Positions 73 to 24,129 of a stretch of DNA of 64,000 nucleotides are shown here, piece after piece (the stretch's first letter is position 1; every line of letters begins with the position of its first letter). This DNA comes from a virus. Lineage: Duplodnaviria; Caudoviricetes. The DNA is taken from the IMG/VR virus record IMGVR_UViG_2854078061_000001, positions 44,150 to 108,149 of that record; one strand, given 5' to 3'. The notes under the pieces are model-generated. The model did no database searches. It worked only from the letters and a program-made list of their open reading frames with translations, and had not been told where the DNA came from. The translations under genes and the position numbers were made by a program.

Positions 73-1464
73 ATGAAGTTTTATGACACCTCCGCGCTTC
101 TTGATTTGGGAGCCGCCGCTTTCGAACCTGCCAGTGCAACAGCCTCTGGTGCAACAGAGCCGTTTCTGATTGCCGATATGACGCTGCACGAGCTGGAAGA
201 GATCAAGACAAGCGGCAAGAAGAGCGAAGAGATCCGCTATAAGGCCCGTACTGTAACCCGCCTGCTGGCCGAGCATCACGACGACAACACCTTTATGGTA
301 GTGGCAGTCCCCATGTCTTCCCTGTTCTATATCCTGGATGGCAAACCGATCAGCGATAACAACGACGCGACGATCATGGCAACCGCCCGCTGGTATCTGG
401 ACGAGATGAAGCGCAATCTGAATGACGCGATTGAAGCCGGACTCCCGGAAGCACAGCGACAGATCCAGGCCAACATTGATTCTTTCAGGTTCGTCACCAG
501 CGACCTAAGTTGCGCCAATATCGCCAGCGGCATTCTTGATCTGCCGATCGAGTTCTCCTATCCCGATGCAGCAGCAAGCGCCAATAATAACTACACTGGC
601 TAGACTGAAGTCACTCTTGATGAAGGCGGCGAGGAAGCCATGGCGATGGCATATCAAACCCACGATGAAGGCTATACATATCAGAATCTGTTTGACACTC
701 CAGTGAATGGCTATCTGATTGTTCGTGATCCAGACACAGTAGACGATGATATGCCGGCAGGCAATGCGGTAGGCTGGCTACGATGGAATGGCAAGAAATA
801 TGTACCACTCAAATACAAAAAGATCAGTAATCGCTTCACTGGCGACGTAAAACCACTCAATGACCAACAGAAGCTCGCATTTGATATGCTGCAGAACGAC
901 GATATTACAGTTAAAATGCTGGCTGGAACATTCGGCAGCGGCAAGACAATGCTTATGGTGTCCTCTGCCATTGATATGATCGAGAAGCACAAGGTTGAGA
1001 AGCTGATCTGGATTCGCAATAACATCGAAGTCAAGAATACCAAGGAGTTGGGTGCACTACCTGGCACTCTACTAGAGAAGCTCGGCGCTGCTTCTTTTGC
1101 TGGACCTCTGGCTGATCACTTGGGCGGCGAAGCTGGTTTGGAATACTGGATCAATAATGGGCAGGTAGAAGTAGCTCACCTTGGATTTATTCGTGGCCGC
1201 GACTACAAGAACGCAATTATTATGGTTTCAGAGGCTGAGAATCTGACCAAAGAGCATGTACAGCTGCTACTCGGCCGTGTTGGTGAAGGATCTATGCTGT
1301 GGCTTGATGGCGATCTGAAGCAGACTGACGAGGCCGTGTTTGAAAATAACAGCGGTATGCGTAAGGCAATTCAGTGTCTGGCTGGCAACCCGCACTTTGG
1401 ATATGTCTACCTGAACAAGACAGAACGCAGCGAGACCGCACAACTGGCTGACCTGTTAGACTAA
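73..1464 (+). CDS. phoH: PIN domain + PhoH-family ATPase (463 aa, read through TAG 601-603)
   Basis: N-terminal YDTSALL / NNDATI PIN motifs; GTFGSGKT Walker A, IRGRD, SEAENLT, DGDLKQTD PhoH motifs; ORFs 73-603 and 640-1464 are in frame and joined by one TAG. Confidence 0.85.
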
Positions 1465-1478: not shown

Positions 1479-1760
1479 ATGATAGAAGTAAGAATAGACG
1501 GATTACGACCAATGGATTACATCTCTCCTACTGGCGACTGGAACTATGAAGCGATTGACGGTTTAGCGAAAGAGTTGTGTGACCGACTTCGAGAAGTTGA
1601 GACAGAACAGATACTGGAGGAATTCAAAAAATATATAGAAAACCAACATTCTGACAATATGGTTATATTAAACCAATTGCAAGCTCAATTGAATAATATA
1701 GCTACACACCGATATCTGATTACACCATTTAACAGAGGCATAGTAGCATGGGACAGATGA
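1479..1760 (+). CDS. Hypothetical protein
   Basis: 93-aa ORF with upstream AAGGGG RBS; ATGA overlap with next gene. Confidence 0.6.
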   Translation: MIEVRIDGLRPMDYISPTGDWNYEAIDGLAKELCDRLREVETEQILEEFKKYIENQHSDNMVILNQLQAQLNNIATHRYLITPFNRGIVAWDR

Positions 1761-2077
1761 GCAAAGCTAGTGAAGAAATATTTTATACAACCAATGAGTA
1801 TCTGACCTATAAGATGTCTCGATATTTTGACACTTATGTTCTGTTGCTTGGTTTAAAAGACAACTCAGGATTCTTCATGGATTTTGTCGGTGGAGCAGGA
1901 GTCCATTATCATCTATATAAGCAGACGGGACCTGCTGTATTTGCATTTATCGATGATAATTATAAGGTACTTCGTGGAGACGACGCAGAATGGATTACTA
2001 ATCTTGCTTTGAAAATATGCCAACAATATGACGAACAGCTGTTCAACGAACAATGTGTCTGTGAGACTTTGCTATAA
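1757..2077 (+). CDS. Hypothetical protein, C-terminal CVCETLL tag (array member 1)
   Basis: ATGA-coupled start; shared C-terminal motif. Confidence 0.7.
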   Translation: MSKASEEIFYTTNEYLTYKMSRYFDTYVLLLGLKDNSGFFMDFVGGAGVHYHLYKQTGPAVFAFIDDNYKVLRGDDAEWITNLALKICQQYDEQLFNEQCVCETLL

Positions 2078-2091
2078 CAGGAGAAGAAATC

Positions 2092-2511
2092 ATGCGCGTT
2101 TTATTCGTAAGGTCATCGATCTATGACACAGTATGCGACTGGTATGAACGCATGGATACTGTGCAAAAGCATCGCAAGGAGACCGCAATCTGTAAATCAC
2201 CCGAAGATTTTTGGGATATATTCAATAAAGATAAATTCGGTGCACAATATACGACATTCTATTTTGACGATAGGTTGGCGCTGACCGATACTTTTGAATT
2301 TTTCAAAGAGATCGCGCGGTTGTATGGTGAAGAGGATGCGAAATATATTTCAGAAAATAAAATGCGGCGGATCACCATGAACTATTTAATGAACAACAAT
2401 CAGTTTGACTTGTTCCAGCAGTTCTCCATCACACCCGAATGTCTGGACGATGTAATCCATGATGCTCTGGCTGATCAACAGTGTGAATGTGTGTGCAGAC
2501 CGCTATTGTAA
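2092..2511 (+). CDS. Hypothetical protein, C-terminal CVCRPLL tag (array member 2)
   Basis: AGGAG RBS; shared C-terminal motif. Confidence 0.75.
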   Translation: MRVLFVRSSIYDTVCDWYERMDTVQKHRKETAICKSPEDFWDIFNKDKFGAQYTTFYFDDRLALTDTFEFFKEIARLYGEEDAKYISENKMRRITMNYLMNNNQFDLFQQFSITPECLDDVIHDALADQQCECVCRPLL

Positions 2512-2525
2512 AGGAGAGGCAAAAT

Positions 2526-2990
2526 ATGGAAAGAATACTAACGCCACGAGGCGGTGGACGTACATATGCGATATGCGAATACGCTGTCAAGAACAATTGC
2601 AATATCTTGGTGCCGATGGGCGGGACGGCTATATTATGTGCACAGGACTATATCAAGGAAATCGCAAGGAATCTTGATATTCAATATTAGGGGTATAGGG
2701 TTGATCATCAATGCCTTATAGTAGATTTACAAAGCAGAGCTCGCGGAGAATACAGTATTCACGTGATAACAACTACTTGTCCTCCCGATAATTATCGTGG
2801 ATTGCACTTAGAGGATAAGCCACTTGTTGTTGATGATATTGACCGATGCTTTAAGTTCATGTGCTTCCCGAATGTGCGAATTGATGCCTGTTCTCTGATG
2901 ACATATGATCCGAGCGAGGTTGCGTTTACACCGCCAACTGCACCTCAAGAAGTGCAGCGGGATGAATGCGTGTGTGACAGCTTGGTATAA
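2526..2990 (+). CDS. Degenerate P-loop-like protein, C-terminal CVCDSLV tag (array member 3; 154 aa, TAG 2688-2690 read through)
   Basis: AAGGAGAGG RBS; PRGGGRT and LVVDDID resemble Walker A/B; frame open across the TAG. Confidence 0.7.
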
Positions 2991-3004
2991 CAGAGGTGCC
3001 AACA

Positions 3005-3313
3005 ATGGATAAATTTGATACGCTACATGATGATCGCACGCTGAGATGGTGTAAGTACAGATATCCCGATGATATCAACAGTGGCGAGTTTACTTTTGAC
3101 TGGGCGAAAGATGGATTCACATGGACTCTGCCAAGCGATAAACCACTGCGAACCACAAACGAAATCGTATCTTACATTGACGCAAATGGTAATCAGCGTG
3201 AAGTTCAAGCGGAAGTAAAATACTATGGAATGGGACACGACACGCTGTGGACGATTGCAATTCCTAATGTTGTCGAGGCAGAAAACGAGTGTGTCTGCGA
3301 ATCACTATTATGA
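3005..3313 (+). CDS. Hypothetical protein, C-terminal CVCESLL tag (array member 4)
   Basis: GAGGTG RBS; shared C-terminal motif. Confidence 0.7.
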   Translation: MDKFDTLHDDRTLRWCKYRYPDDINSGEFTFDWAKDGFTWTLPSDKPLRTTNEIVSYIDANGNQREVQAEVKYYGMGHDTLWTIAIPNVVEAENECVCESLL

Positions 3314-3603
3314 GGCACGATATGAACAATCAATTATTGATACCCGATGATAAGATATACATATATCCATCAGATTGGAAGCAGCCTGTACGAATTCAAT
3401 TTGAAAATAGATCGACCATAGACACTGTAAATCATGGCAATTCACATCACACTATTCAATTCGACAAATGGGTTGATTATAACACCATAGTTACTGATGA
3501 AACTTTACAAAAGCTTATCAAAGACTATATATCGAAAAATTTTCCAAAAGAAGAATACAGTGTATCTATTCACAATGAGTGTTACTGTGAGAGCCTATTA
3601 TGA
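3310..3603 (+). CDS. Hypothetical protein, C-terminal CYCESLL tag (array member 5; start may be 3322)
   Basis: ATGA overlap; shared C-terminal motif. Confidence 0.7.
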   Translation: MRHDMNNQLLIPDDKIYIYPSDWKQPVRIQFENRSTIDTVNHGNSHHTIQFDKWVDYNTIVTDETLQKLIKDYISKNFPKEEYSVSIHNECYCESLL

Positions 3604-3914
3604 AAAAATATATCAGTGAAGAAGTACAACAACAAGCAGCCCTACAATTACATATCGAAATTGAAAATGATTGTAAAATAAAATTTGATAATTTCAGATT
3701 TCAAATAGACGAAGACGATATGACGGTTTGCCGCTATGGAGAACCAGATGAAACGTTTGTAGTTAAAAGGAAAGTAAGACTTTTCTTATTAAATAACGGA
3801 TTTGAATTCGAAATTGCTGGGCCTTATGCTGAACAGATGTACAGACGATATCTTAAACTGATAAATGGAGATATCAATACAAATAGTGAATATTATTGTG
3901 AAAGTCTATTGTAA
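3600..3914 (+). CDS. Hypothetical protein, C-terminal YYCESLL tag (array member 6)
   Basis: ATGA overlap; shared C-terminal motif. Confidence 0.7.
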   Translation: MKKYISEEVQQQAALQLHIEIENDCKIKFDNFRFQIDEDDMTVCRYGEPDETFVVKRKVRLFLLNNGFEFEIAGPYAEQMYRRYLKLINGDINTNSEYYCESLL

Positions 3915-3919
3915 AGAAG

Positions 3920-4189
3920 GTGAAAATATTGGATGAACAAGAGCTAACTGTAAGAGTTGAAGAAATAGATAATCATTTATTTTCTATGCACGATACAGTG
4001 AACCATGCGATTATTAAAGTCGATGAAGCAAATAATCTGTCGCATTTTGCAGTAGAACGTATAGATACTATAAGAGCAACAACAATTTCGTATCAAACTG
4101 CGATTGATCAATTACAAGCTCGAATCGCAGAACTTGAACATAAAATCGATTTGCTGACAGGGCCATGTATTTGTGAGCCGCTGCTATAA
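3920..4189 (+). CDS. Coiled-coil hypothetical protein, C-terminal CICEPLL tag (array member 7)
   Basis: Heptad-rich ORF; shared C-terminal motif; exact start uncertain. Confidence 0.7.
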   Translation: MKILDEQELTVRVEEIDNHLFSMHDTVNHAIIKVDEANNLSHFAVERIDTIRATTISYQTAIDQLQARIAELEHKIDLLTGPCICEPLL

Positions 4190-4200: not shown

Positions 4201-4476
4201 ATGAAAGAAAACGACTTTTCAAAACAGGATATTTATAATATTGGATTTGCCGTAGCTGATGCTGTGCGCGATTATGATGTAACTTACGAGGGTATCCTTG
4301 ACGCGATTCAGGTATATGCAGAATAGCAGGAACTGATCGGCAATGCATCGCTTTATGATACGTTGTGGATGGAAGATGGTACGCCCATGTCCCCTTCTTT
4401 GACACGATATTTATTTCACGAGATGTACTGCCCAGATGATTATGGTTATGATGAGGAGGACGGCGACGATGAGTGA
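4201..4476 (+). CDS. Hypothetical acidic protein (91 aa, TAG 4324-4326 read through)
   Basis: AAGGAGG RBS; MKENDFS...YAE*QELIG...DGDDE; fills an otherwise empty gap and overlaps the next start; absent from the ORF track. Confidence 0.7.
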
Positions 4477-4648
4477 TCGCAAGCGTGATAAGGTGTCTAA
4501 GAGCAGCTATATGCGTAACGCCCGCAAACAGCGTATGATTGAGAATCAGTTTTTGCAGGAAGTTGAGAAGGCTCAGGAAAGCGGCGAACGCCAGCGGCAA
4601 TCAGAGCGGCGGAAGCGGCGCACAATGTGGGACGACGACGAGGATTAA
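4469..4648 (+). CDS. Small basic hypothetical protein (59 aa)
   Basis: GAGGAGG RBS before ATG 4469. Confidence 0.6.
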   Translation: MSDRKRDKVSKSSYMRNARKQRMIENQFLQEVEKAQESGERQRQSERRKRRTMWDDDED

Positions 4649-4664
4649 GGAGGTACACAATAGT

Positions 4665-5024
4665 ATGGACAAAGAGCCTAAGAAGCCGGGCGGAGAGAAC
4701 GATACAGAGCGAGACGATATTCAGGAGATCCGCGTTAACTCTATTCCGCTGATGGTACTTATCGCTGGTGTTTTAAGTTCCGTTGACTTTGTTGATTGGA
4801 TGTTTACTATCGCAGAAATGCTTGTTGTATTTGTGCTTACATATCAGATCCTAGGGCGTATGCTTTTTACTGCCCTGGTGGTTACGCCCATTTTGGTTGT
4901 GTTTATCAGTAAGTGTCTGGCGGCCTACGATGAGATCATGTATGGCGACGATGATATGGGCGGCGATGGCGAAGATGACGGCGATGACCACTTTAATGAC
5001 CACTGGAATAATTTGATTCATTGA
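4665..5024 (+). CDS. Membrane protein with acidic tail
   Basis: AAGGAGG RBS; two or three hydrophobic segments. Confidence 0.7.
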   Translation: MDKEPKKPGGENDTERDDIQEIRVNSIPLMVLIAGVLSSVDFVDWMFTIAEMLVVFVLTYQILGRMLFTALVVTPILVVFISKCLAAYDEIMYGDDDMGGDGEDDGDDHFNDHWNNLIH

Positions 5025-5037: not shown

Positions 5038-7581
5038 TTGTTTAGTCCACCATTATATAGCGTACTAAAATTTAACTTGAATTATATCGTTTCTCATAAC
5101 TATAATTTTAAACTGACACCAGAAGAGATGGAGCAGTATGAGGTCTTACAGGGCGACGATATGTTGTTCAGACAAATTCGGCTCATTTCCGACGACTAGA
5201 ATAAATTCCAGCGCTTTATTATCTTTGTTGATGCAACAGGTGGCCAGAACCACCCTGATGCTATTGATCATTTAGTAGAGCATGGATTCAAATTTAATGG
5301 CCAGAAATATCTGTTCTGTGAACGTAGTGCAAGTATGGTCCGTCAGAGCATGTTAAGTTTTGTTGAGCGACATATCTACCCTGAACTTGACCGCCGCGTA
5401 AGCATGGAACTGGATTTTTCTGAGACACCCACCGTCCTGAGCAAGTATTATGCTTATCGTGGTTTGATGCTGAGTAGCTGCCACTGCCTAGAGAACTGGT
5501 ACCCCAAAATGATTGTTGTTCCAGACTATATGACAACGATCAAGAATCAGTGGATCGAGTATCTGGTAGACAAGACTGTGACGTTTAATGACCGCAAAAC
5601 AGGCAAAGAGCGTACCTGGACTCAGAAAGATATCGCCACAAAAACAGTTGACATTGATATCAACGCCTTTGATGGCGCTGGAATCTGCCACCCAAGTATC
5701 ATGCGCGAATTTGAAAAGCGTATCGGCACTTCTGAACGGATGAACAGCTTGATTTTGCGTGCTCCATATATCAAGGGTTGCTTACACGAGATTGATTACG
5801 AGCGTTTTTTTGAAGAGAACGGCGTTACAAAAATCAAGGACATCTGGGGCATGGAATATGATGTAACACCTGGCAGCGAACCAATGATTATTATTACTGC
5901 TTCAATGTACAAGGGTCTCAAATATTTCAAGAAAACTGGTACCTATTCTGACTGGGAGAGATATTGGGAACTTTTCAAGAAGTACGACAACTGCCTTGGT
6001 GTAGCTAAATGGAACTTTACGCTTGAACAAGAACCGCTTTCCACCCGTAGCAACTATCAGGTCATTCAAGATCTACAGCTCGACAATGAGTCTTTTAAGC
6101 ATCTAGCTGACGACAGCATTACCTGGTATCAGAATATTGTCAAAGGCGACCCAATTTATACATACTGCTTCCTTGGTTTACTTGCCGAGAACAACGACCC
6201 GATGAATCATTACATGGCTGCTGCCCTGCGTAACCCAGTGATGGTGAAAGAGCCTGCAATCAAAGATTATATTCACTCGCTGCTTGATAAATATCGCAAT
6301 GAGATGAAGTGCGGTCGGCTTTGGATGAATGCTACTTTTAAGTTCTGGGCTCCTGACCTTATTGCACTATTGCAGCACATTGGTGGCCTACCTGTGACTG
6401 GCTGCCTTGAAGACGGTGAGTTCTACAGCTTTGATCGTCGTGGTGTGATGGAGGGAGACCGCTTAATTGAGCGCAATCCCCATATCTCTGTTGCAGAACA
6501 TGTAAAGGCCAAGGCCGTAGACAACGAATACACCCGCAAATACTGCAGCCATCTTCAGAATGTTGCTATGGTAAATATCAAATCCATCGTGGCTTCCAGA
6601 CTCAATGGTTCGGATTTTGATGGCGACCTGGTTCTAATCATCGATAATCCGCTGATGATGAGTGGTGTTCCTGATAATATCCCCATTACACTCGATGTTG
6701 AAGATAAGATCACTGCGTTGGCAGAATGTGATATTGTGAAGAACAAAGTTGCCTGCACCATTCGCGGATTGAAGAGTTCTATTGGCGAAATTTCAAACTA
6801 CGCAACTGCATACCATAATAAGGTTCCGACCATGGAAAAGACCAAGAAGCTCTATCACGATAATATTTCGCTTTTGAGCATCTGCAACGGAAAAGCTATC
6901 GATTATGCTAAAACAGGTGTTCTATATCCGATCCCGCGTAATGTAGCAGCTTATGGTCGTCCTCTACCCTACTTTATGAAGTATGCAGGCCCTTACTACG
7001 CACGTTTACATAATCTCAGCAAGGCACATAGCAACATGAACCTGCTTTGCATGAGTCTGGAGCGTTGGGAGCGCGGTGTACGGTGGCGTAAAGAGCCCGC
7101 AGGCAGCTTTGATTGGCATATCATGTACGATCCAGAGGTCTCCTATGACCAGGCAGTCTTTGATGAGATCGAAGCCATTTTCTTGGACTTCAACAAATGC
7201 CGCAAGGAACAGCTTGAGTTCGAAAAGAAATGTCGCAACTGGCAATTATATCATAAGGACATCGAGTCGCGTATTACCAAAGAAGAGGCTAAGACATATG
7301 AGACGAACTGGCAGGCGATCTACAATGTCTACCGTAACAAGTGTAAGCTGGTGTGTCCTGATGTGAGAGAGCTGGCGAATATTCTTGTAGTGCTTTGCTA
7401 TGAGAAGTATCCCAATAAATTCAAGAAGTTTTTGTGGCACATGGCCGGCGCTGGTGTGGTCGAAAATATCAAGCCGGTTCCTGTTCAGCTGCCAGTTCAC
7501 GATCCGAACGGCGAGTACGAATACCTTGGCCAGCGATATAGTCTGGCTGAACCGAAAATTTATGAAGCGAGGGTGAAATAA
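5038..7581 (+). CDS. YonO-like single-subunit DNA-dependent RNA polymerase (847 aa, TAG 5197-5199 read through)
   Basis: Catalytic LNGSDFDGD motif, FDGAG, RAPYIKG, ERNPH, AIDYAKTG; GAGGAG RBS before TTG 5038; position upstream of the late operon as in SPbeta. Confidence 0.88.
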
Positions 7582-7582
7582 T

Positions 7583-7831
7583 ATGGGTTGGTTTAAGAAG
7601 AAAACAAAGAAACCGCAGAAAATAACCAAGTGTCCTACCTGTGGCGGCTTGTTGACAAAGCAGACTGGACTGGAGCACGAATTTACTTATAAAAATCAGA
7701 TGGTTCATGTGCCGGATATCACGGCGATGGTATGCGGTGATTGTGGCGAGATGTATTTTGATTATACCGAATTCGAGCGTATTTCAAATTATGTTCATGA
7801 AGCAGTTGATGGGAAGGATGAAACAGAATGA
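7583..7831 (+). CDS. YgiT/MqsA-type zinc finger protein
   Basis: CPTCGG ... CGDCGEMYF. Confidence 0.7.
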   Translation: MGWFKKKTKKPQKITKCPTCGGLLTKQTGLEHEFTYKNQMVHVPDITAMVCGDCGEMYFDYTEFERISNYVHEAVDGKDETE

Positions 7832-8112
7832 GTTATCGGTGTTTTAAAATAACAATCATTACTTTGATAGCTGTAATATGTTTATGTTTAGGTATTGGAA
7901 TTTGGGCATCTATTCCGCGCAAAAACAATGTAGGCGATAAATCTATTTATAATGGAAGCTCTTTGTACAGTATTTCCAACACGAAACTTATTTACGATGA
8001 GAACACAAGAATTATGTATTATTGGCTACATAGTGGATATATGTCTCCATACTATAATGCACATGGACAACTTTGCCGCTATATTGATGGCGAAATTATA
8101 CCAATCGAGTAA
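7828..8112 (+). CDS. Small membrane-anchored protein
   Basis: N-terminal TM helix; YDENTRIMYY...MSPYYN domain. Confidence 0.65.
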   Translation: MSYRCFKITIITLIAVICLCLGIGIWASIPRKNNVGDKSIYNGSSLYSISNTKLIYDENTRIMYYWLHSGYMSPYYNAHGQLCRYIDGEIIPIE

Positions 8113-8121
8113 GGAGGTTAA

Positions 8122-8934
8122 ATGGCATATACAACTTTCTACTGTAATGAGAATATACTGCTCGATCATTGGCAGGACTATCACGAGTCAAATCTGATGC
8201 TGCGAAATCTGCTGAAGCGAACCTCCCTCTCCCCTATTGAATGCGCCACCATTTATTATGAGCGGATGAAAAATCCTGAGTCTGTCAGCTATGACCGTAG
8301 CCACTTGATCCAGACGTTCAGCAGAGGCCGTAAAAATAACGCGCCCATACTTGACGTACATCAAGTTGTGCTTTATCAGAAAGATCTGGACTATATCACA
8401 GAGGCGCGCCGAAAGTATCATATCAACTACGCACAATTACGTGTTCTGTTTGGGGTAATATTCTTCTGCCGGCTGTATGGAAGCGATACCTTTGCCTTGG
8501 ATACCGAGTTCAAGATGAAACGTTTTGGTGGCTGCTTTGAAGAGCAGACAGAGATCATGTATTGCGCTGGGAAGAACTAGGACGACGGCTATAATACAGT
8601 GCGGGGCATGAAAGAGATTTCTGACGACTATCACCTGCTGAACAGAACCGGCACTGACGACATTGGATGCTTATACCAGTACCAAAATTTTGCCCTTGAT
8701 AAGAATGACACGATTGCGTACACGTTCAATGTGACGCTTGAAAACAATCGGCTGAATTTAAGCGCCATAGTGCGAGAGCTATTTGACCCGAAGGAATGTT
8801 ATTGCATCGTGTGTGGCGAACAGTATCACTCAGAAAAGCCAAATGCCAGCAGATATTGCAAAGGATGTGCGGCAAAGAAAGAACAGGCACGTCTAGCGAA
8901 AAAGAATGCGAATCGAAACAAACGACCGAAATGA
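8122..8934 (+). CDS. Hypothetical protein with C-terminal zinc ribbon (270 aa, TAG 8578-8580 read through)
   Basis: AAGGAGG RBS; two in-frame ORFs joined at GKN*DDGY; CIVC...CKGC. Confidence 0.75.
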
Positions 8935-9010
8935 ACTTTAAGTTCTTAATATATGAAAGGGTGTTGTATATTTCCCTTTCGATTATAAATTACAAAGGAG
9001 ATTTATTATA

Positions 9011-9208
9011 ATGGTTGAAATTACTAAGCGTGAGGCAGAGTATCTGCGTAAGGTTATTCCCGGTGTCCATATCACTCGTACCGTTCATCACTGGTATGCG
9101 GAGGAAATCAAGTCTGTGCTGACTCAGCTGCCTGGCAATCCCGAGGCAGAAGAGGCGCTACGCGAACTGAACCGCACCCAGCGTACCAACACCAATTTTG
9201 AGATCTGA
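9011..9208 (+). CDS. Hypothetical protein
   Basis: AAAGGAG RBS; biased codon usage. Confidence 0.7.
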   Translation: MVEITKREAEYLRKVIPGVHITRTVHHWYAEEIKSVLTQLPGNPEAEEALRELNRTQRTNTNFEI

Positions 9209-9216
9209 GGTGGCGC

Positions 9217-10401
9217 ATGGACGAATTTAAGAAAGCGGACGGCGAGACCTTTGATGAATATATGATGCGGATTGGTGAGGCATGCAGCGAACGTAAGCTG
9301 ACTTAGAATCAGGCAGCAGAACTGCTGAATGAAGCAACCGGCTCAGACTATGGCGAATGCAGATATCGCAAGACCTATAAGTCGTGGAAAGATGGTTATG
9401 ACTACGCTATTGATCACGCCAACGAAGAAACGATCCAGGATGAACTACAGCGACTGAAGATTGAAAAGATCAAATTACAAGATGAACGCAATGCAGCAAA
9501 CAAAGTGTATCGCGATGTTGCCCGTGCCGAATCCATCAAGGAATTGATTCTGAAGAACGTTGCTCCGTATAACCCTGACAATTTTCTGAATGTTGTGCAA
9601 TACGAAGGCAGCGGCCACGATGTGATTGTGTGCTTGTCTGATTTACATGCTGGCGCGGGTATTGATTCGGCGTGGAATAAGTTCAACAAGGATATCCTAA
9701 AGGCTCGGCTTGAGAGTTATGCTGCACAGGTGTTCAATATCGTAGCGCGACATACAGCCGAAAAGATTCATGTGCTGCTGTTGGGCGACCTGATCAATGG
9801 GCATATCCATGTTAATACCCGCGTGCAGAACAATGAAAACAGCATTGAGCAGGTTATGACGGCTGCAGAGCTGGTAAGTAATTTTGTTGCTACACTGTAC
9901 GAGGTATGCCAGCATATTGACGTGTATTCTGTGAGTGGCAATCATTCACGAGTATTCCCCAGCAAAGAGGATCAGGTAGCAGGTGACGAACTTGAAGCAC
10001 TGATTCCGTTCTATATGAAGGCACGACTGCAAAATCTGGCTGGCATTGATATTAAAACAGAGAAGCTCGATCCGACCTTTGGTGGCTTTAAGGCTAGGAA
10101 TAGTCTTGTGATGTACGCACATGGAGATAAGGACTCCCCTGCTAACGTCGTTGAGCACCTGACACTGATGGTGAAGCAGCCAATCGACATGGTGTTCCTT
10201 GGTCACCGCCACACAAACGGCATGACAACGGTGCATGGTACGAAGGTTATTGAGAGCGGCTGCGTTTGTGGCAGCGATTCCTATGCAATTGGACTGCGCA
10301 AAAATGATGTGCCGCAGCAGGCAGTGGCTGTAATCGATGACAGCGGCCTAGAATGTCTGTACGATGTCAAGCTGGAGAAGCCAGCAAAGATAGTAATTTA
10401 A
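9217..10401 (+). CDS. Calcineurin-like metallophosphoesterase with N-terminal helical domain (394 aa, TAG 9304-9306 read through)
   Basis: SDLH, LGD, SGNH, HGD, GHRH motifs; GAGGTG RBS at 9217; KLT*NQAAELLN. Confidence 0.85.
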
Positions 10402-11801: not shown

Positions 11802-13555
11802 GTAAAGAGAAATTAACAGATAAGGAAGTAGCGAATACAAAATCAGAAAAAATAATGAACGCAGTTGCCATGAGGGCATCATTCTATAGAGCGAATCCTC
11901 AGCGGTTTGCAAAAGACTATTTAAACCTGACATTGAAGCCATTCCAAGAGCTACTATTGTTTTTGATGGTGAGATGCACCGGCTTCTGCTTCATTGCTGC
12001 TCGCGGCCTTGGTAAGTCATTTCTAACCGCAGTTTTCTGTGTGATTACATGTATTCTATGGCCTGGTTCCAAGGTTTGTATCGCCTGTAAAGTAAGAAGC
12101 CAATCTATCAGTATTTTGGATGAAAAGATAATGAAGGAGATCTACCCCAACAGTCCCCTTCTACGCTCTGAAATCAAAAAGGTCGATATCAACAATCAGA
12201 AAGCAGAGATTATATTTAAGAACGGCAGCTATATCAAAGTAGTCACTGCCACAGATAGTAGTCGTGGTAGTCGAGCTACACTTCTCATCTGTGATGAATA
12301 TAGATTGCTTTCTAAAGATGTTATAGATTTGATTTTGAAGAAGTTCCTGAATATTGTTCGTCATCCTGGATATTTGGACAAGCCACAATATGCACATCTT
12401 GCAGAGCGAAACAAAGAATTCTACCTAAGTTCCGCTTGGTTCCAAAACCATTGGAGCTATGAAAAATGTCAGGACTACTTTGTAAATATGATCGACTTTA
12501 ATAAGAAATATTTCTGCGTATCCTTCCCGTATCAAATGTCAATCAAGAGCGGCTTGCTGTTGAAAGAAGCTGTAGAGGACGAAATGAGTGAATCAAGTTT
12601 TTCTGATTTGACATTTGCAATGGAGAATGAATGTAAGTGGCTTGGTGCTACTGAGGGTGGGTTATTCCAATTTGATGACATCAACAAAACGCGCGTCATT
12701 GAAAAGGCGTTCTACGCACCGAATCTTTTACTTAATCAAGCTGCTATGGACGTGCCGAAAAAGAAAAATGGCGAAGTACGAATTCTCACCGCCGATATTG
12801 CATTGATGAGCAGTCGCAAAAACGACAACGATGCAACCAGTATCTTCTTGAATTGTATGCTGCCAAATAAATCAGGGCGCTATACTAGCAATTTTGTCTA
12901 TTCAGAGAACATTGAGGGTATGAGTGCGCAAGATCAGGCACTAAAACTGCGACGGTATTTCGATTATTTCAACTGTGATTATATCGGGGTTGACTGTAGA
13001 GGTGTTGGATTGCCTCTGGTTGACCTGTTGATGCGCGATATGTATGACCCAGAAACAGGCGAAACATATCCTGCGATTAGCTGCTGTAACAATCAAGAAA
13101 TCGCATCTCGCTGTTCTGACAAAAATGCCAAAAAGGTCATCTAGGCAATTATGGGCAGCTCTCAGTTTAACAGTGATGTAGCCATTGGATTACGCAGCGG
13201 TTTCCAGCAAGGACGTATCCATCTGCTTCAGAGTGAGTACGGATGTGAAGACCAGTTGCGCAAAATCTATAAAGGCTATGATAAAATGTCGCCTACTGAA
13301 CGAGCCGCACTACAGATGCCATATATCAATACCGGGCTTGCTGTAAACGAACTTGTAAATCTGGGCTACGAAACCGTAAATAACGTTATCAAAGTCAAGG
13401 AGAAATCCGGCTGCCGTAAAGACCGCTACTCTTCCCTGTCTTACAACTATTACATTGCGCAGCAAGTTGAACGAAGCATGGAGAAGAAGAATAAAAAGCC
13501 AACTTCGCTCACGTTTAACTTTAGAGCGCCTGTATTAAAGAAGGGAGGACTGTAA
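11798..13555 (+). CDS. Terminase large subunit (585 aa, TAG 13142-13144 read through)
   Basis: AARGLGKS Walker A, LICDEYR Walker B, nuclease motifs ADIAL / VDCRGVG / RKDRYSS; the last nuclease motif lies downstream of the TAG. Confidence 0.92.
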
Positions 13556-15078
13556 TGGCTGAAGATAAAATGCAGAAAAAGGTCCGCGTAACAAATGCCA
13601 AAGATGGCAAGACCTCTTATGTAACATATCAGGATCTTGTCAATGGCGTTTATGCGAACCTGTCACATATCGGTATCCGTAATCTGGCATCGAATACCGA
13701 CACAAATCCGACATATACAAAATATACGAAAGATCAGATCGTCACCTATCTTGGCAACCCCGCCAACTATGAGAAGCAGCTGCGAAATATGAGTAAATAT
13801 CTATTCAATATTTCAAACTACTATCGCCGACTGATTCAGTATTTTGCGAATATGTCTACATATTCTTACACGATTTCTCCGTATGGACTTGATCGCTCTA
13901 AGACAATTAACGCCAATAAATTTAAGAAGGCGTATTATTCTGCTGTAACAGCAGTTGAGCTGATGAATATCCCGCACGAAGCCACGAAGATACTGACAAT
14001 TGCATTCCGCGATGACGTTTACTATGGCTATGCGTGGGAGACAAATGACAGTTTTGCTTTTCAAAATCTTGATGCAGACTATTGTAAAATAAGCAGCATT
14101 GAGGACGGCGTTTATAACTTTGCTTTTGATTTTTCTTATTTTGATTCCAACAAAGACAAGCTGCCCAACTATCCGCCAGAGTTTGAGACGATGTATAACC
14201 AATATAAGGCTGACTCGCAGAACTACAAGTGGCAGGAGCTGGACAGTTCCAAGTCCATTTGCATCAAAGTAAACGAGCACGATTATATCCCCATTCCCCC
14301 GTTTGTGAGTTTGTTTAGTGCGCTTGCCGATATTGAAGACTACCGTGCCATCAGTAAAAACGCAAGTGAGACCAATAACTATAAGGCGCTGGCAATGGAG
14401 ATCCCAGTGAATGATACTGACGGCTCTTTCCTGATCGACTATGATACAGCAAAAGAGTTCTATGACATGATGAGTAATGTACTGCCGTCGAATATTGGCG
14501 CAATTCTTACTCCCATGAAAATCAGCAGCTAGAACTTTGAAAAGAGCGGCGTGAACAGTGACTCTAAAGAGGTCGCAAATGCTGAGGCCGCATTCTTTAC
14601 AAGCGCTGGCGTGAATAAAAATCTGTTCGGCGGTGGCGAAGATCCTTCTGCTACTACCCTGCAGCTGTGTACTGTGAATGACCAGGAGATCGTGTTTGCA
14701 GTGATGCGACAGTTGGAACGCTGGATCAATCGCAAGCTGAAGAGCGTTTCCAGTTCTTATAGGTTCCGCCTAAACTTTCTACCAGTTACTCATTATAACG
14801 TGACTGAGATGCATGAAAGATATCTCAAGGATGCCACCTATGGTATGCCGACTCGAACCGCAGCTCTTGCAACTACTGGTTATGCGGGTAGCGATTATGA
14901 GAACATGACTTATCTTGAAAATGAAATCTTGAGACTTAGTGCTGGTGAAACACCGCTCAAGAGCTCCAATACTCAGTCCGGTTCCGCCGGGGATGAAGGT
15001 GGCCGCCCAACAAATGCAAGTAAGGGCGAGGGCCTGTCTGATGCTGGCAATGTAAGCGCCGATAGACAGGAGGCATAA
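13555..15078 (+). CDS. Portal protein (507 aa, TAG 14530-14532 read through)
   Basis: Position after terminase; size; C-terminal SSNTQSG...GGRP motif typical of SPbeta-like portals. Confidence 0.85.
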
Positions 15079-15079
15079 G

Positions 15080-15295
15080 ATGAGTCAGGAGATTTATGAA
15101 GTTATCGTACACGGAGCACACTCCGCCGGGATGGCAAAGTTCCTGACCGACCGTGGCGCTCTGATGCTACGAATAGACCCAACAAACAAGTATGTTTTTG
15201 TATACGATTCTGTGTTTGAAAATGCTCTGGCTGAGTTGCAGGTTGCGATTCGCCAGGGCTTTTATTTTGCTGACGAGGAGGTGAAAACAGAATGA
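15080..15295 (+). CDS. Hypothetical protein
   Basis: GGAGG RBS; ATGA overlap with next gene. Confidence 0.7.
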   Translation: MSQEIYEVIVHGAHSAGMAKFLTDRGALMLRIDPTNKYVFVYDSVFENALAELQVAIRQGFYFADEEVKTE

Positions 15296-16935: not shown

Positions 16936-16963
16936 TTTACCAAAAATTAGGAGGTACATAATT

Positions 16964-17476
16964 ATGGCTAATAATAAGCATGCTGTTGTGCGCATTGACA
17001 AGCTGGGTGGCACCCTGGATGGTGCTCAGCTGGAGAGTGCTATTTTCTACAAGGATTCCGATGCCGCTGAGATCGATAACGCTCAGCTGGTTGTTCTGGG
17101 CGAAAAGCTGGGTCGCGAGGTCTACAAGGCTACCGCTCCCACCGCAACTTCCACCGTTGCTGACCTGTATCTGACCGCTGGCGTCGAGCTGTTCTATGAT
17201 CAGACCGTGGCACATTATCTGCCCGAGTGGGTCAATGAGGCTGGCAAGCCCGTGCGCGTTTACGCTCTGAATGTTTCTAAGGGTGGCTTCTCTGCTACTG
17301 CCGAGGCATTTAACGGCACCCCTGCAAAGGGCAAGTATGTCGGTTTTGCTGCCGATGACACCAAGATCCAGATTCAGGAGACTGCTGATGACAAGACCTT
17401 TGGCTGCATCGACTTTGTTGAGACTGTTGGTTTTGGCGATGGTCGCTATACCTACTACATGATCACCCTGAAGTGA
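16964..17476 (+). CDS. Capsid decoration/cement protein (YonC-like)
   Basis: Directly before the major capsid gene; strong codon bias. Confidence 0.7.
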   Translation: MANNKHAVVRIDKLGGTLDGAQLESAIFYKDSDAAEIDNAQLVVLGEKLGREVYKATAPTATSTVADLYLTAGVELFYDQTVAHYLPEWVNEAGKPVRVYALNVSKGGFSATAEAFNGTPAKGKYVGFAADDTKIQIQETADDKTFGCIDFVETVGFGDGRYTYYMITLK

Positions 17477-17504
17477 TTCCGAAGTTTTAAGAAATCAACA
17501 TAAA

Positions 17505-17534
17505 GCCGTCCGTTTAAAGCGGGCGGCCATTTTT
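17505..17534 (+). terminator. Hairpin/terminator
   Basis: GCCGTCCG-loop-CGGGCGGC then T run. Confidence 0.6.
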
Positions 17535-17553
17535 ATTATAGGAGGTTTATACC

Positions 17554-20614: not shown

Positions 20615-20615
20615 T

Positions 20616-21113
20616 ATGAATCTCGATGAGATCGGGGTATTCAAAAATCGGGTCGTTTCCAAGTTGATCAATGACGAAAATGTCCTTGATGTCCTATTGG
20701 GCAATACAGATAATATCGACGATCCCGAAACTCTTCTGCTTGGTAAGAATGGGTCGGGTGAAGGTGGATGCGTGTTTAAGTATGAGTATGTTCCAGATAC
20801 GCAGGAAAACTCAAAAACGTTTTTGTGTGTTGAGGTCGTGCCAGAACAAACCAGCGGTGATTCTATTACGATGATGACCATTTACGTATTTGCATATTGC
20901 AGTAAAAACCTTATGCAGACATATCATCGGAAAGGACAGGCTGGGACACGCATTGATATTTTGGCCAGTGATATTGATAAGCTTCTGAATGGAAACAAAG
21001 AATTTGGAATTGGACCGCTTGAATAGGCTGGAAGCAGCATCTATAAGCCAGCGCAGTGCTATTACGGACGAATGCTTGTTTATCAGGTCGGCTCTTTTAG
21101 GAGGGCTCGCTGA
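20616..21113 (+). CDS. Tail completion/terminator-like protein (165 aa, TAG 21024-21026 read through)
   Basis: RIDIL...FGIG motif; read-through frame ends in TGATG overlap with next gene. Confidence 0.75.
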
Positions 21114-21913: not shown

Positions 21914-21918
21914 CAATT

Positions 21919-22656: not shown

Positions 22657-22674
22657 TACATAGCATTTACACGA

Positions 22675-22704
22675 GGCAGAGTCTTTCGGGGCTCTGCCCC
22701 TTTT
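22675..22704 (+). terminator. Intrinsic terminator after tail tube gene
   Basis: GGCAGAGTC-TTCG-type loop-GGCTCTGCC then TTTT. Confidence 0.75.
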
Positions 22705-23572: not shown

Positions 23573-23577
23573 TACTT

Positions 23578-24126: not shown

Positions 24127-24129
24127 ACT

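What the first reader, a model, noticed from the sequence alone, without database searches (positions are those of the whole stretch)
1757..4189. Tandem array of seven unrelated small proteins sharing a C-terminal C-x-C-[ED]-[STP]-L-L tag
Seen: consecutive ORFs end in EQCVCETLL*, CECVCRPLL*, DECVCDSLV*, NECVCESLL*, NECYCESLL*, SEYYCESLL* and GPCICEPLL*, while their bodies show no mutual similarity. Codons in the motif vary synonymously (Ser as AGC/TCA/AGT, Leu as CTA/TTG/TTA/CTG), so conservation is at the peptide level and not a DNA repeat. Inference: a terminal sorting, docking or modification signal grafted onto diverse cargo. It could be a capsid-packaging or ejection tag, a protease degron or adaptor decoy, a metal-bridged docking motif, or a Cys-modification site. 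The array sits between PIN-PhoH and the phage RNAP, either of which could be the reader. I know of no described system with this motif.
Basis: partly seen in the sequence, partly recalled or inferred. Interest (0 to 1): 0.86.

Follow-up and report, generated by a model that had tools for sequence, protein, structure and literature searches.

The report
Shared tail tag on phage mini-proteins
Seven unrelated small proteins in this window, twelve more elsewhere in the same gut phage and hundreds in related phages end in the same short peptide (hydrophobic-x-Cys/Phe-x-Ser-Leu-Leu-stop), which behaves like an address or docking label; each phage uses one version of it throughout, and what reads it is still unknown.

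Summary
All seven ORFs at 1757-4189 end in [C/Y]xC[EDR][STP]L[LV]-stop. Nothing else in the window does. The 108-kb record holds 12 more, on its other arm.

Related ~145-kb gut phages yielded 572 distinct tagged ORFs, against 3 for a reversed-motif control. Codon use shows selection on the peptide, not the DNA.

With tails removed, the bodies fall into about 15 families unrelated by profile comparison. Two AlphaFold models give different folds, an SH3-like barrel and a terminase-ATPase-like alpha/beta domain. In both the tail is disordered.

There are three versions of the tail: ECxCxSLL, KKx[FL]xC[RKH]SLL, and a Cys-free G[IV]xFxSLL. The true core is therefore hydrophobic-x-[C/F]-x-S-L-L-COOH. 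This weakens metal, thiolactone and Cys-modification readings.

The version is uniform within each genome (30 versus 20 records, none mixed), although RNAP, PhoH and other neighbours are shuffled between versions.

Best reading: a C-terminal docking motif read by one co-evolving, phage-encoded partner. The partner is not identified. The leading candidate, untested, is a co-inherited Ubl/E2-like/JAB/ThiF cassette.

This scan has noted comparable genome-wide tags, with other motifs, in other large phages. I found no paper describing this one.

The parts
73..1464 (+). Context: PIN-PhoH (PhoH2) gene, read through an in-frame TAG at 601-603.
   Evidence: Pfam PhoH 6e-37 and PIN_4 3e-4. Its sequence type does not follow the tag version.
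1479..1760 (+). Context: conserved 93-aa untagged ORF just upstream of the array. Its stop overlaps the start of the first tagged gene (ATGA).
   Evidence: Orthologues in relatives end ...HRYLITPFGKR....
1757..2077 (+). Tagged gene 1 (T13, about 106-109 aa; an alternative start is at 1748). Tail EQCVCETLL, tail codons 2051-2074.
   Evidence: Body cluster 16. Orthologues in one-Cys phages stop at ...QLFN/QLFD without a tail. Relatives swap this cassette between 1585 and 2079.
2092..2511 (+). Tagged gene 2 (T14, 139 aa). Tail QCECVCRPLL, tail codons 2485-2508.
   Evidence: Body cluster 2 holds both tail versions on orthologous bodies.
2526..2990 (+). Tagged gene 3 (T15, 154 aa, in-frame TAG at 2688-2690). 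Tail DECVCDSLV, tail codons 2964-2987. The body is a terminase-ATPase-like alpha/beta domain with a degenerate Walker A (PRGGGRTY).
   Evidence: AlphaFold2 core pLDDT above 90, residues 129-154 below 50. Foldseek best hits are large-terminase ATPase domains, prob about 1, E 1e-3.
3005..3313 (+). Tagged gene 4 (T16, 102 aa). Tail NECVCESLL, tail codons 3287-3310.
   Evidence: Body cluster 6. No Pfam or PHROG match.
3322..3603 (+). Tagged gene 5 (T17, 93 aa; an alternative start at 3310 overlaps the previous stop). Tail NECYCESLL, tail codons 3577-3600.
   Evidence: Body cluster 5.
3600..3914 (+). Tagged gene 6 (T18, 104 aa, ATGA overlap with gene 5). Tail SEYYCESLL (Tyr in place of the first Cys), tail codons 3888-3911.
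   Evidence: Body cluster 3 holds two-Cys, Y-x-C and one-Cys tails on orthologous bodies.
3920..4189 (+). Tagged gene 7 (T19, 86-89 aa, probably coiled coil). Tail GPCICEPLL, tail codons 4163-4186.
   Evidence: Only weak coiled-coil-type Pfam hits. Body cluster 4.
4201..5024 (+). Context: three small conserved untagged genes between the array and the RNAP. They are an acidic-tailed protein (4201-4476, read through TAG at 4324), a basic 70-aa protein (4436-4648) and a membrane protein (4665-5024).
   Evidence: Present after the array in all relatives inspected.
5038..7581 (+). Context: YonO/QDE-1-type single-subunit RNA polymerase (DFDGD motif), read through TAG at 5197.
   Evidence: Pfam RdRP PF05183, 1e-16. 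It is 99% identical between a two-Cys phage (G004) and a one-Cys phage (G001), so it does not follow the tag version.

Best explanation
The shared ending is a short C-terminal docking motif, hydrophobic(-7)-x-[Cys/Phe](-5)-x-Ser(-3)-Leu-Leu-COOH. It sits on a flexible linker and has been attached to at least about 15 unrelated families of small accessory proteins, 13-19 genes per genome. The carriers are a clade of ~145-kb SPbeta-like, probably temperate, phages of gut Clostridia.

Shown:
- Selection acts on the peptide, not the DNA.
- The bodies are unrelated.
- The tail is disordered in both models.
- There are three versions of the tail.
- Every genome uses only one version, in both gene arrays, although neighbouring genes recombine freely between versions.

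Inferred:
- The tail inserts as an extended strand, with its free carboxylate, into a groove of a single reader. In this way many different proteins are brought to one partner.
- The only block found to be inherited with the version is the left-arm block. It holds the SH3-like tagged paralogues themselves, a 143-aa protein, a Ubl-like protein, a 491-aa E2-like protein, a JAMM/JAB protease, the retron reverse transcriptase and an integrase-like protein.
- My leading candidate, untested, is the Ubl/E2-like/JAB/ThiF cassette, with the tagged proteins as its interchangeable adaptors or clients.
For: Peptide-level selection:
- Codons at the tail are fully degenerate.
- 615 of 650 body homologues keep the tail.
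- 61 of 69 single-domain SH3-like representatives from a 1.84-billion-protein library carry it. None of 81 multi-repeat relatives do.

Unrelated bodies:
- There are 24 BLAST clusters. Only the SH3-like clusters link up in hhalign; all other pairs score below 35%.
- The two AlphaFold2 folds differ.

Flexible tail:
- pLDDT is 58 for the last 10 residues of T03 and below 50 for the last 26 residues of T15.
- Linkers vary in length and are Pro-rich.

Hydrophobic contacts rather than Cys chemistry:
- Position -7 is C, F/L or I/V. Position -5 is C or F in 11 + 7 independent Cys-free sequences.

One co-evolving reader:
- 30 of 50 records carry CxCxSLL tails (on both strands in 27; the other three show them on one strand only). 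20 of 50 carry none. The three sequenced through have only one-Cys tails, in both arms.
- Orthologous bodies carry whichever version their genome uses.
- Tail charge is about -2 in one version and +1 to +3 in the other, while body charge does not follow the version.
- RNAP, PhoH, an AAA ATPase and a radical-SAM-motif gene are shuffled between versions.
- JAB identity classes separate the versions perfectly in 43 records.

Cassette:
- ThiF, PF00899, 6e-19.
- JAMM motif HxHx7SxxD, invariant in the alignment; Prok-JAB E 0.008.
- The E2-like protein has an invariant QPHIDRxxC and a Prok-E2_D lead at score 0.80.
- The Ubl-like protein has a conserved ...K.DNA followed by a variable end.
Against: - No reader has been shown.
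- Two charge-complementarity screens over all orthologous proteins of six genomes gave no clear partner.
- The SH3-like bodies show no clear compensating charge switch.
- Co-inheritance of the left block with the tag version may be linkage with the left array. It is compatible with a single ancient switch, so it has little statistical weight.
- ThiF itself does not follow the version.
- The Prok-E2_D HMM does not match.
- No recognised C-terminal-peptide-binding domain (PDZ or TPR) appeared in the 69 conserved proteins scanned from complete genome G004; a six-frame scan of complete genomes G004 and G001 found no PDZ_2 domain.
- A host reader cannot be excluded, because the host proteome was not available.
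Confidence: 0.5

Rival explanations
1. Degradation tag or timer. The non-polar C-terminus marks all these proteins for an AAA+ protease or unfoldase, so that they act only briefly. The enzyme could be host ClpXP, ClpCP, FtsH or Lon, or the phage's own classical-clade AAA ATPase next to the left array. Alternatively the tags flood and block that protease.
For: - The motif lies at the extreme C-terminus, is non-polar (Leu-Leu-COOH) and is disordered.
- A classical AAA ATPase (PF00004, 2e-11; its sequence shows an RPGRF-type second region of homology) lies two genes from the left array.
- Established knowledge: ssrA (LAA-COOH) and other 3-5-residue C-terminal degrons.
Against: - Nine residues are conserved, more than known C-terminal degrons need.
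- The acidic and basic versions are strictly uniform within a genome, although phages of both versions exchange genes recently (RNAP 99% identical). That is hard to explain with a host protease.
- The phage AAA types do not follow the version: G002 (one-Cys) is 94% identical to G004 (two-Cys), while G001 and G003 are about 60%.
Confidence: 0.15
2. Virion-loading signal. The tail docks on the inner surface of the procapsid, or on portal or scaffold, so that the small proteins are packaged and injected with the DNA. This would resemble T4 internal proteins or encapsulin cargo.
For: - The format matches encapsulin cargo-loading peptides and the HK97 protease tail: C-terminal, flexible linker, small hydrophobic core containing S-L (comparison from established knowledge).
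- Right-array genes sometimes contain the in-frame TAG typical of the late arm (18 of 57 in cluster 1).
Against: - Capsid, portal and terminase genes are equally distant from both versions, or mosaic (major capsid 81-82% to all). They do not follow the tag version.
- Left-array genes sit among early-type genes (NAD salvage, retron RT, replication) and almost never contain TAG (2 of 204).
- No virion proteome is available.
Confidence: 0.1
3. Cysteine chemistry. The Cys residues bind a metal (a zinc clasp with a partner such as the CxxC...CHDHC protein Zf80), or form a C-terminal thiolactone or thioester (Cys + 4 residues as in AgrD-derived autoinducing peptides, possibly after adenylation by the ThiF-like enzyme), or are lipidated.
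For: - Cys at -5 is kept in nearly all two-Cys and one-Cys tails.
- The ring size matches AIP thiolactones (established knowledge).
- A ThiF-type adenylating enzyme is present in every genome inspected.
- Zf80 is present in 27 of 27 two-Cys records that include the left arm, and in 0 of 20 one-Cys records.
Against: - A third version has Phe at -5 and no Cys at all. It is seen in 11 distinct sequences and 7 further representative clusters.
- Position -7 is Cys only in one version and F/L or I/V otherwise. Rare C-to-Y variants also exist.
- The Ubl-like protein is the obvious substrate for ThiF and JAB.
- Zf80 lies inside the left array, so its association may be linkage.
Confidence: 0.05
4. Nascent-peptide or translation signal. 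The last residues act inside the ribosome at the stop codon to pause termination and couple translation to the next gene of the tightly packed arrays.
For: - The motif always lies directly before the stop.
- In roughly two of five distinct tails the stop is followed at once by, or overlaps, the next Shine-Dalgarno sequence: TAAGGAGG 63, TGAGGTG 79, TAAAGGAG 34 of 486. ATGA overlaps also occur.
Against: - Tagged genes that are not followed by another tagged gene keep the motif (T12, T19).
- Versions change genome-wide although phages of different versions appear to share hosts.
- Most other tightly packed genes of the phage have no such ending.
Confidence: 0.04
5. No separate signal. The genes are old paralogues whose bodies diverged beyond recognition and kept a structural C-terminus. 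Alternatively the conservation is a DNA or RNA element, or the result of gene conversion.
For: Eleven left-arm genes are true paralogues, SH3-like and about 30% identical.
Against: - Two different folds were predicted. Profile comparison is negative for most cluster pairs.
- The tail is disordered, not part of a fold.
- Synonymous sites differ between tails of one genome, so there has been no recent gene conversion and there is no DNA motif.
- The same SH3-like body occurs in 81 multi-repeat proteins without the tail.
- T13 orthologues lack the tail.
Confidence: 0.03

Closest known systems
PTS1 peroxisomal targeting signal ([SAC]-[KRH]-[LM]-COOH read by the Pex5 TPR domain)
   Same: A very short motif at the extreme C-terminus of many unrelated proteins, needing the free end. 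One receptor gathers all the cargo.
   Different: PTS1 is eukaryotic and is for organelle import. No TPR or Pex5-like reader was found among the 69 conserved phage proteins scanned. The core here is longer, about 7-9 residues. This is an analogy of principle only.
Encapsulin cargo-loading peptides and the capsid-targeting tail of the HK97 prohead protease; T4 capsid targeting sequence (CTS) of IPI-III and Alt
   Same: A shared tag on unrelated proteins of a phage or phage-derived shell. It is C-terminal on a flexible linker (encapsulin, HK97) and has a small hydrophobic core.
   Different: The T4 CTS is N-terminal and is cleaved. Capsid genes here do not follow the tag version. Many tagged genes lie in the early arm. 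Packaging has not been shown.
Class I PDZ ligands ([S/T]-x-hydrophobic-COOH, for example the beta2-adrenergic receptor ending DSLL)
   Same: S-L-L-COOH fits the class I pattern, including tolerance of V/I at the last position.
   Different: Pro, Asn or Gln are tolerated at the Ser position, and the -1 Leu is nearly invariant. No PDZ domain is found in two complete phage genomes. Bacterial PDZ proteins are mostly outside the cytoplasm (established knowledge).
Sliding-clamp binding motif QL[SD]LF (for example E. coli MutS QMSLL; C-terminal tails of Pol II and Pol IV)
   Same: A hydrophobic pentapeptide, often at the C-terminus, ending S-L-[LF]. Many different proteins share one hub.
   Different: Positions 1-2 (Q, L) are not met; here they are C/F followed by a variable polar residue. 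No phage clamp is present. The version co-varies with the phage, not the host.
ssrA-type and other C-terminal degrons (LAA-COOH; ClpX C-motif 1); SspB-type tethering peptides
   Same: A disordered, non-polar C-terminus recognised by one machine.
   Different: The conserved stretch is longer. Acidic and basic versions are uniform within each phage genome. Nothing ties it to a protease.
Substrate-receptor boxes of ubiquitin ligases used by viruses (F-box, SOCS/BC-box, PRANC of poxvirus ankyrin proteins)
   Same: A family of variable binding modules that share one small constant docking element. A Ubl/E1/E2-like/JAB cassette is present and is co-inherited with the tag version.
   Different: There is no sequence or fold relationship. 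This is what it may work like, not a family it belongs to.
Genome-wide C-terminal tags noted by this scan in other large phages (e1-5676253, e1-5936443, e1-5892627, e1-5725581; unchecked AI notes)
   Same: Many small, fast-evolving, otherwise unrelated phage proteins share one lineage-specific C-terminal tag with an unknown reader.
   Different: Those tags are short helices or four-Cys modules. This one is an extended Cys/Phe-x-S-L-L tail with three charge versions.

Membership tests
   hhalign on bodies without tails links only the SH3-like clusters 0/8/17. The seven window genes fall in seven clusters with pairwise probability 1.6% or lower. AlphaFold2 gives an SH3-like barrel for T03 and a P-loop-like alpha/beta domain for T15.
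DNA or RNA repeat element | Conservation at nucleotide level, independent of codon position | tested here: not met
   Ser is AGY 217 / TCN 204, Leu uses all six codons, and both stop codons are used.
PDZ class I ligand | [S/T] at P-2 and a hydrophobic residue at P0, with a free carboxylate | tested here: met
   The ending is S-L-[L/V/I]-stop in about 90% of tails. Pro is tolerated at P-2, which is atypical.
PDZ class I ligand | A PDZ-domain reader available in the same compartment | tested here: not met
   PF13180 gives no match in complete genomes G004 and G001. None appears in the Pfam inventory of 69 proteins. Host proteins could not be tested.
Beta-clamp binding motif QL[SD]LF | Gln at position 1 and Leu/Met at position 2 of the pentapeptide | tested here: not met
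   Position -5 is C or F. Position -4 is E, D, R, K, H, Q and others.
Beta-clamp binding motif QL[SD]LF | A clamp that co-varies with the motif | tested here: not met
   No DNA_pol3_beta domain is found in G004 or G001. The replication module has DnaE-type Pol III alpha, DnaB, primase and AAA_24 only.
AgrD/AIP-type thiolactone (Cys + 4 C-terminal residues) | An invariant Cys (or Ser) nucleophile five residues from the ring-closing carboxylate | tested here: not met
   Phe replaces Cys in 11 sequences and in 7 representative clusters.
AgrD/AIP-type thiolactone (Cys + 4 C-terminal residues) | A C-terminal recognition tail removed by AgrB | tested here: not met
   The motif is followed directly by the stop codon in all cases.
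CaaX / C(x)3X prenylation box | An essential Cys at -4 (or -5) and a protein prenyltransferase | tested here: not met
   Cys is dispensable. No prenyltransferase appears in the Pfam inventories.
CxC metal-binding tail / zinc clasp | Paired Cys ligands conserved wherever the tail occurs | tested here: not met
   CxC occurs in only one of three versions. 20 of 50 genomes have no CxCxSLL tail at all.
T4-type capsid targeting sequence | An N-terminal tag cleaved by the prohead protease at L/I-x-E | tested here: not met
   The tag is C-terminal, and the N-termini are unrelated. Whether the proteins are packaged could not be tested.
Encapsulin/HK97-type C-terminal cargo-loading peptide | Docking on the capsid protein, so co-variation with it is expected | tested here: inconclusive
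   The major capsid protein is 81-82% identical to all five comparison genomes whatever their version. A capsid pocket that reads only the invariant S-L-L core cannot be excluded.
ssrA-like C-terminal degron | Tail-dependent degradation by ClpXP/FtsH | not testable with these tools
   Needs half-life measurements. Only the format (disordered, non-polar C-terminus) is met.
Prokaryotic Ubl conjugation cassette (E1/ThiF, E2, JAB, Ubl), as candidate reader | ThiF-type adenylation domain | tested here: met
   PF00899, 6e-19. Nearest solved relatives are UBA5, MccB and MoeB.
Prokaryotic Ubl conjugation cassette (E1/ThiF, E2, JAB, Ubl), as candidate reader | JAMM motif E...HxHx7SxxD | tested here: met
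   E54, H128, H130, S138 and D141 are invariant in 5 orthologues. The Prok-JAB HMM gives only E 0.008, below its cut-off.
Prokaryotic Ubl conjugation cassette (E1/ThiF, E2, JAB, Ubl), as candidate reader | E2 (UBC-like) fold with a catalytic Cys | tested here: inconclusive
   QPHIDRxxC is invariant and there is an ESM-Atlas lead to Prok-E2_D at 0.80. The PF14460 HMM finds nothing. No structure was predicted.
Prokaryotic Ubl conjugation cassette (E1/ThiF, E2, JAB, Ubl), as candidate reader | Physical binding of the tail to a cassette protein | not tested

The most novel reading that the evidence does not exclude
The tails plug a fast-evolving panel of 13-19 small target-binding proteins (SH3-like, coiled-coil, terminase-ATPase-like decoy and others) into the phage's own ubiquitin-like conjugation machine (Ubl, E2-like, JAB, ThiF). 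The phage would then run a substrate-adaptor system comparable to F-box/SOCS-box receptors of eukaryotic viruses, marking or removing host (defence) proteins.

A variant of this reading: the SH3-like paralogues themselves read the tails and build a head-to-tail scaffold that recruits the other tagged proteins.
Probability: 0.12. Interest if true: 0.9.

Novelty: new variant of a known kind. Interest (0 to 1): 0.72.

Why it matters
About a tenth of the genes of a widespread group of large human- and animal-gut phages carry one address label, yet neither the label nor its reader is described.

It could also uncover a phage-run protein-targeting or conjugation machine. The tag itself is a compact, portable 8-9-residue handle with natural orthogonal versions (acidic, basic, Cys-free).

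The strict one-version-per-genome rule, kept in spite of recombination, is a clean natural co-evolution experiment.

Tried and rejected
- **The search for related loci with the 12-paralogue alignment.** It had no conserved stretch to search with.
- **57-aa zinc-ribbon gene in the one-Cys array, as a one-Cys-specific partner.** It is present in only 3 of 50 records.
- **Charge-flip column screen and 15-residue window charge screen** over all orthologues of six genomes. No convincing complementary partner.
- **Version-linked charge changes in the SH3-like body.** The largest differences are in the tail itself. Body columns are weak and mostly go in the same direction.
- **Body net charge versus version.** No consistent relation.
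- **Prok-E2_D HMM on the genome.** No match.
- **PDZ_2 and beta-clamp HMMs** on two complete genomes. No match.
- **Pfam, NCBIfam and PHROG scans of the tagged proteins.** Only phrog_7488 (unknown function) for the SH3-like body.
- **Looking for the Cys-free lineage's genome.** Not in IMG/VR. The 12 metagenome loci found were all two-Cys.
- **Expression from public runs.** The two RNA-labelled runs hold the whole phage region as long uniform contigs, like the DNA runs. They say nothing about timing or transcription.
- **Literature searches** for a described phage tag of this kind. Nothing relevant.
- **Host identity.** The only lead is one 8.5-kb contig binned in an Oscillospiraceae MAG.

Full report
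**1. The observation**

The window's + strand carries, between a PIN-PhoH gene (73-1464) and a YonO/QDE-1-type RNA polymerase (5038-7581), seven tightly packed small genes. They end in EQCVCETLL, CECVCRPLL, DECVCDSLV, NECVCESLL, NECYCESLL, SEYYCESLL and GPCICEPLL. A six-frame scan of the whole window finds the motif in these seven ORFs only.

The third gene is split by an in-frame TAG (2688-2690) under table 11. Many genes of this arm contain such TAGs (earlier notes of this scan read them as a recoded sense codon). Read through, the gene is 154 aa (2526-2990) and aligns over its full length with orthologues.

**2. The array is part of a larger set**

The window is G000:44150-108149 of a 108-kb IMG/VR record. 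A pattern search and a six-frame scan of that record find 12 more ORFs with the same ending. They lie on the opposite strand of the other arm, at G000 11936-18266 and 24835-25116.

Eleven of them are true paralogues: about 90 aa and about 30% identical. They share the body motifs YxxGDxVxVRxDL, YxMRSG and WTDxMF, followed by a 4-9-residue linker and ECxCESLL.

**3. Related phages**

The RNA polymerase retrieved 72 related loci from IMG/VR, from genomes of 140-150 kb, some with terminal repeats. About 50 keep a 5-7-gene tagged array upstream of the polymerase.

In the others the same position holds an array whose genes end in [KR]Kx[FL]xC[RKH]SLL, with one Cys and a basic tail.

In 3.1 Mb of such DNA I counted 572 distinct tagged ORFs, against 3 for the reversed motif among 40,602 ORFs. 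Of 650 ORFs homologous to a tagged body, 615 keep the tail. The exceptions include orthologues of window gene 1 that simply stop at ...QLFN or ...QLFD, and rare C-to-Y or L-to-I variants.

**4. Selection is on the peptide**

At the tail, Ser is encoded by AGY 217 times and TCN 204 times. Leu uses all six codons about evenly. TGA and TAA are both used. Tails within one genome differ at synonymous sites. This excludes a DNA repeat and recent gene conversion.

**5. The bodies are unrelated**

With the last 10 residues removed, the 572 proteins form 24 BLAST clusters. Profile-profile comparison links only the SH3-like clusters: 95%, 66% and 34%. All other pairs score 32% or less, and most score below 5%. 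The seven window genes lie in seven clusters.

- **T03, a left-arm paralogue (55-sequence alignment).** AlphaFold2 gives a confident SH3-like barrel (pLDDT 91), but the last ten residues score only 58. The best structural matches are peptide-binding Mib/HERC2-type SH3-like domains and B. subtilis SPbeta YorP. The body matches phrog_7488, of unknown function.
- **Window gene 3, T15 (24 sequences).** The model is an alpha/beta P-loop-like core (pLDDT above 90) whose last 26 residues score below 50. It resembles large-terminase ATPase domains but has a degenerate Walker A.

So the tag is a disordered extension on different folds.

**6. What the motif really is**

A profile search of 1.84 billion representative proteins found 4,233 relatives of the SH3-like body. 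I examined the best 150.

- Of 69 single-domain proteins, 38 have the two-Cys tail and 16 the one-Cys tail. Seven have F-x-S-L-L with no Cys. Several of the remainder are near variants (CENLL, CKNLL, CRQLL).
- None of 81 multi-repeat or fused relatives carries a tail.
- Eleven further Cys-free sequences end in G[IVA][IT]FQSLL.

Position -7 is C, F/L or I/V according to version. Position -5 is C or F. Position -4 is free. Position -3 is S (less often P, N, T or Q). Positions -2 and -1 are L-L (V/I tolerated at -1). The core is therefore hydrophobic-x-[C/F]-x-S-L-L-COOH.

The interchange of Cys with Phe or Leu indicates hydrophobic contacts. It does not fit metal binding, thioester or thiolactone formation, or lipidation.

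**7. One version per genome**

A pattern search over 50 related records found CxCxSLL tails in 30. In 27 they are on both strands. The three with hits on one strand only are incomplete or shorter records. The other 20 records have none at all. The three of these that I sequenced through (G001-G003) have only one-Cys tails, in both arms.

Orthologous bodies carry whichever version their genome uses. Net charge of the last ten residues is about -2 in one version and +1 to +3 in the other. Body charge does not follow the version.

Neighbouring genes, by contrast, are mosaic between versions:

| Gene | Identity to G004 (two-Cys) |
|---|---|
| RNA polymerase | G001 (one-Cys) 99%; G005 (two-Cys) 93% |
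| PhoH | G001 (one-Cys) 80%; G005 (two-Cys) 68%; G002 and G003 (one-Cys) 53% |
| AAA ATPase beside the left array | G005 (two-Cys) 95%; G002 (one-Cys) 94%; G001 and G003 (one-Cys) about 60% |

A gene with a radical-SAM-type Cys motif and several small genes between the two arrays are also more similar across versions than within them.

Phages of different versions therefore exchange DNA, yet tails never mix. That argues for selection to match one reader.

**8.

In six fully fetched genomes, the only genes whose similarity follows the version form a block next to the left array. It holds a 143-aa protein, a 76-aa Ubl-like protein, a 491-aa protein, a JAB/JAMM protease, the retron-type reverse transcriptase, an acidic 115-aa protein and an integrase-like protein. 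In 43 records the JAB identity classes separate the versions without exception: two-Cys 65% or higher, one-Cys 52-53%.

Cassette features:
- A ThiF/E1-like enzyme, PF00899, 6e-19. It is closest to UBA5, MccB and MoeB.
- A JAMM motif that is invariant in the alignment (Prok-JAB E 0.008).
- An invariant QPHIDRxxC in the 491-aa protein. There is only a weak lead to Prok-E2_D, and the HMM is negative.
- A Ubl-like protein with a conserved ...K.DNA followed by variable residues. This looks like its own processing site, so ThiF and JAB most likely act on it rather than on the tails.

An 80-aa Cys/His protein, Zf80 (NPCxxC-x8-CHDHC), lies inside the left array. It is found in all 27 two-Cys records that include that arm and in none of 20 one-Cys records.

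All of this is compatible with plain linkage and one ancient switch. I therefore treat the cassette, and Zf80 for the extra Cys, as candidates only.

Negative results:
- Two charge-complementarity screens gave no clear partner.
- A test for compensating changes in the SH3-like body gave none either.
- No PDZ or clamp domain was found in the two complete genomes scanned. No TPR or protease domain appeared in the Pfam inventories of 69 proteins.

**9. Timing and lifestyle**

- Left-array genes almost never contain the in-frame TAG (2 of 204). Right-array genes sometimes do: 18 of 57, 7 of 55 and 7 of 29 in three clusters. So tagged proteins are probably made from both arms.
- The left arm carries NAD-salvage genes and an HD-domain gene; replication genes lie further along the same strand.
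- Several records are flagged as proviruses. One relative lies inside a 574-kb contig.
- Strong Shine-Dalgarno sites and a contig binned with an Oscillospiraceae MAG suggest a Clostridia host.
- Public RNA-labelled runs gave no usable expression evidence.

**10. Verdict**

The interpretation as a grafted terminal signal is supported. The emphasis on C-x-C, and on PhoH or the RNAP as readers, is not.

The best-supported mechanism is a C-terminal docking motif that brings many unrelated accessory proteins to one co-evolving, probably phage-encoded partner (confidence about 0.5). Degron (0.15), virion loading (0.10), Cys chemistry (0.05), a translation signal (0.04) and no separate signal (0.03) remain as rivals.

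I found no paper describing this tag. This scan's unchecked notes describe comparable genome-wide tags with other motifs in other large phages, so the principle may be general.

Noticed in passing
window 601-603, 2688-2690, 4324-4326, 5197-5199 (and many more to 61868): In-frame TAG codons lie inside clearly continuous genes (PIN-PhoH, tagged gene 3, an acidic small protein, the RNAP). In tagged gene 3 the TAG column holds Tyr in the closest orthologues and Arg in one (alignment A6). That is one base away from TAG and does not by itself say which residue is inserted. No tRNA gene lies in the window.
   Followed up: partly
G000 20462-24596 (L010:12462-16596, minus strand), outside the window: A phage-borne ubiquitin-like cassette sits next to a retron-type RT. 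It comprises a 143-aa protein, a 76-aa Ubl-like protein (ends K.DNA + variable residues), an E2-like 491-aa protein (invariant QPHIDRxxC), a JAMM/JAB protease and a 226-aa ThiF/E1-like enzyme. It is conserved in all six genomes inspected; the JAB gene itself was found in 43 of 50 records searched.
   Followed up: partly
G000 22136-23610 (L010:14136-15610, minus strand): The E2-like gene is split in this record into 113-aa and 378-aa ORFs with an ATGA overlap. It is a single 490-505-aa ORF in five relatives, so this copy has a frameshift or an assembly error.
   Followed up: no
G000 17484-17726 (L010:9487-9726, minus strand): An 80-aa Cys/His-rich protein (NPCxxC-x8-CHDHC) is embedded in the left tagged array. 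It is present in 27 of 27 two-Cys records that include that arm and in 0 of 20 one-Cys records. The only family hit is a weak one to DUF5651, below threshold.
   Followed up: partly
window 2526-2990: The body of tagged gene 3 looks like a stand-alone, shortened large-terminase ATPase domain. Lys of Walker A is replaced (PRGGGRTY), while a Walker-B-like VVDDID is kept. It may be a decoy or regulator of packaging.
   Followed up: partly
window 1585-2079: Relatives in four public runs replace this stretch (the end of the 93-aa ORF plus all of tagged gene 1) with 361-541 other bases. IMG/VR relatives carry either this gene or an unrelated 78-aa tagged gene (ending NECICESLL) at the first array position. 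This is a cassette swap with a boundary right after the stop codon.
   Followed up: partly
G000 13413-15542 (L010:5413-7542, minus strand): A 709-aa ORF with no Pfam or NCBIfam match interrupts the left tagged array in this record and in G001. I saw no full-length counterpart at the matching place in G004.
   Followed up: no
G004 119720-120841 and 125164-126264 (relative, L098/L099): Two replication/recombination proteins (one of them a PD-(D/E)XK nuclease) end in acidic tails with a terminal Phe (...DDDIDTMF, ...GIDDLF). These resemble the SSB C-terminal tip and are a second, different kind of C-terminal docking tail in the same phages.
   Followed up: no
G000 6499-10399 and G004 95771-100155: An NAD-salvage set (NAMPT, NAD synthase, a phosphoribosyltransferase, a macro domain and a nicotinamidase-like gene) lies beside the left array. 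It is probably a counter to NAD-depleting defences.
   Followed up: no
L247 (VOFB01000498.1:248528-264762, 574,840-bp contig); G000 1266-2948: A relative's left array lies inside a 574-kb contig, and G000 carries a 560-aa protein that by its N-terminal sequence looks like a large serine recombinase (no family search was run). Together with several 'provirus' flags this suggests the clade is temperate.
   Followed up: no
proteins P0157-P0300: The SH3-like body also occurs as 2-6 tandem repeats in proteins of 170-1121 aa, none of which carries the tail. The small tailed form and the multi-repeat tail-less form may be two ways of building multivalency.
   Followed up: no
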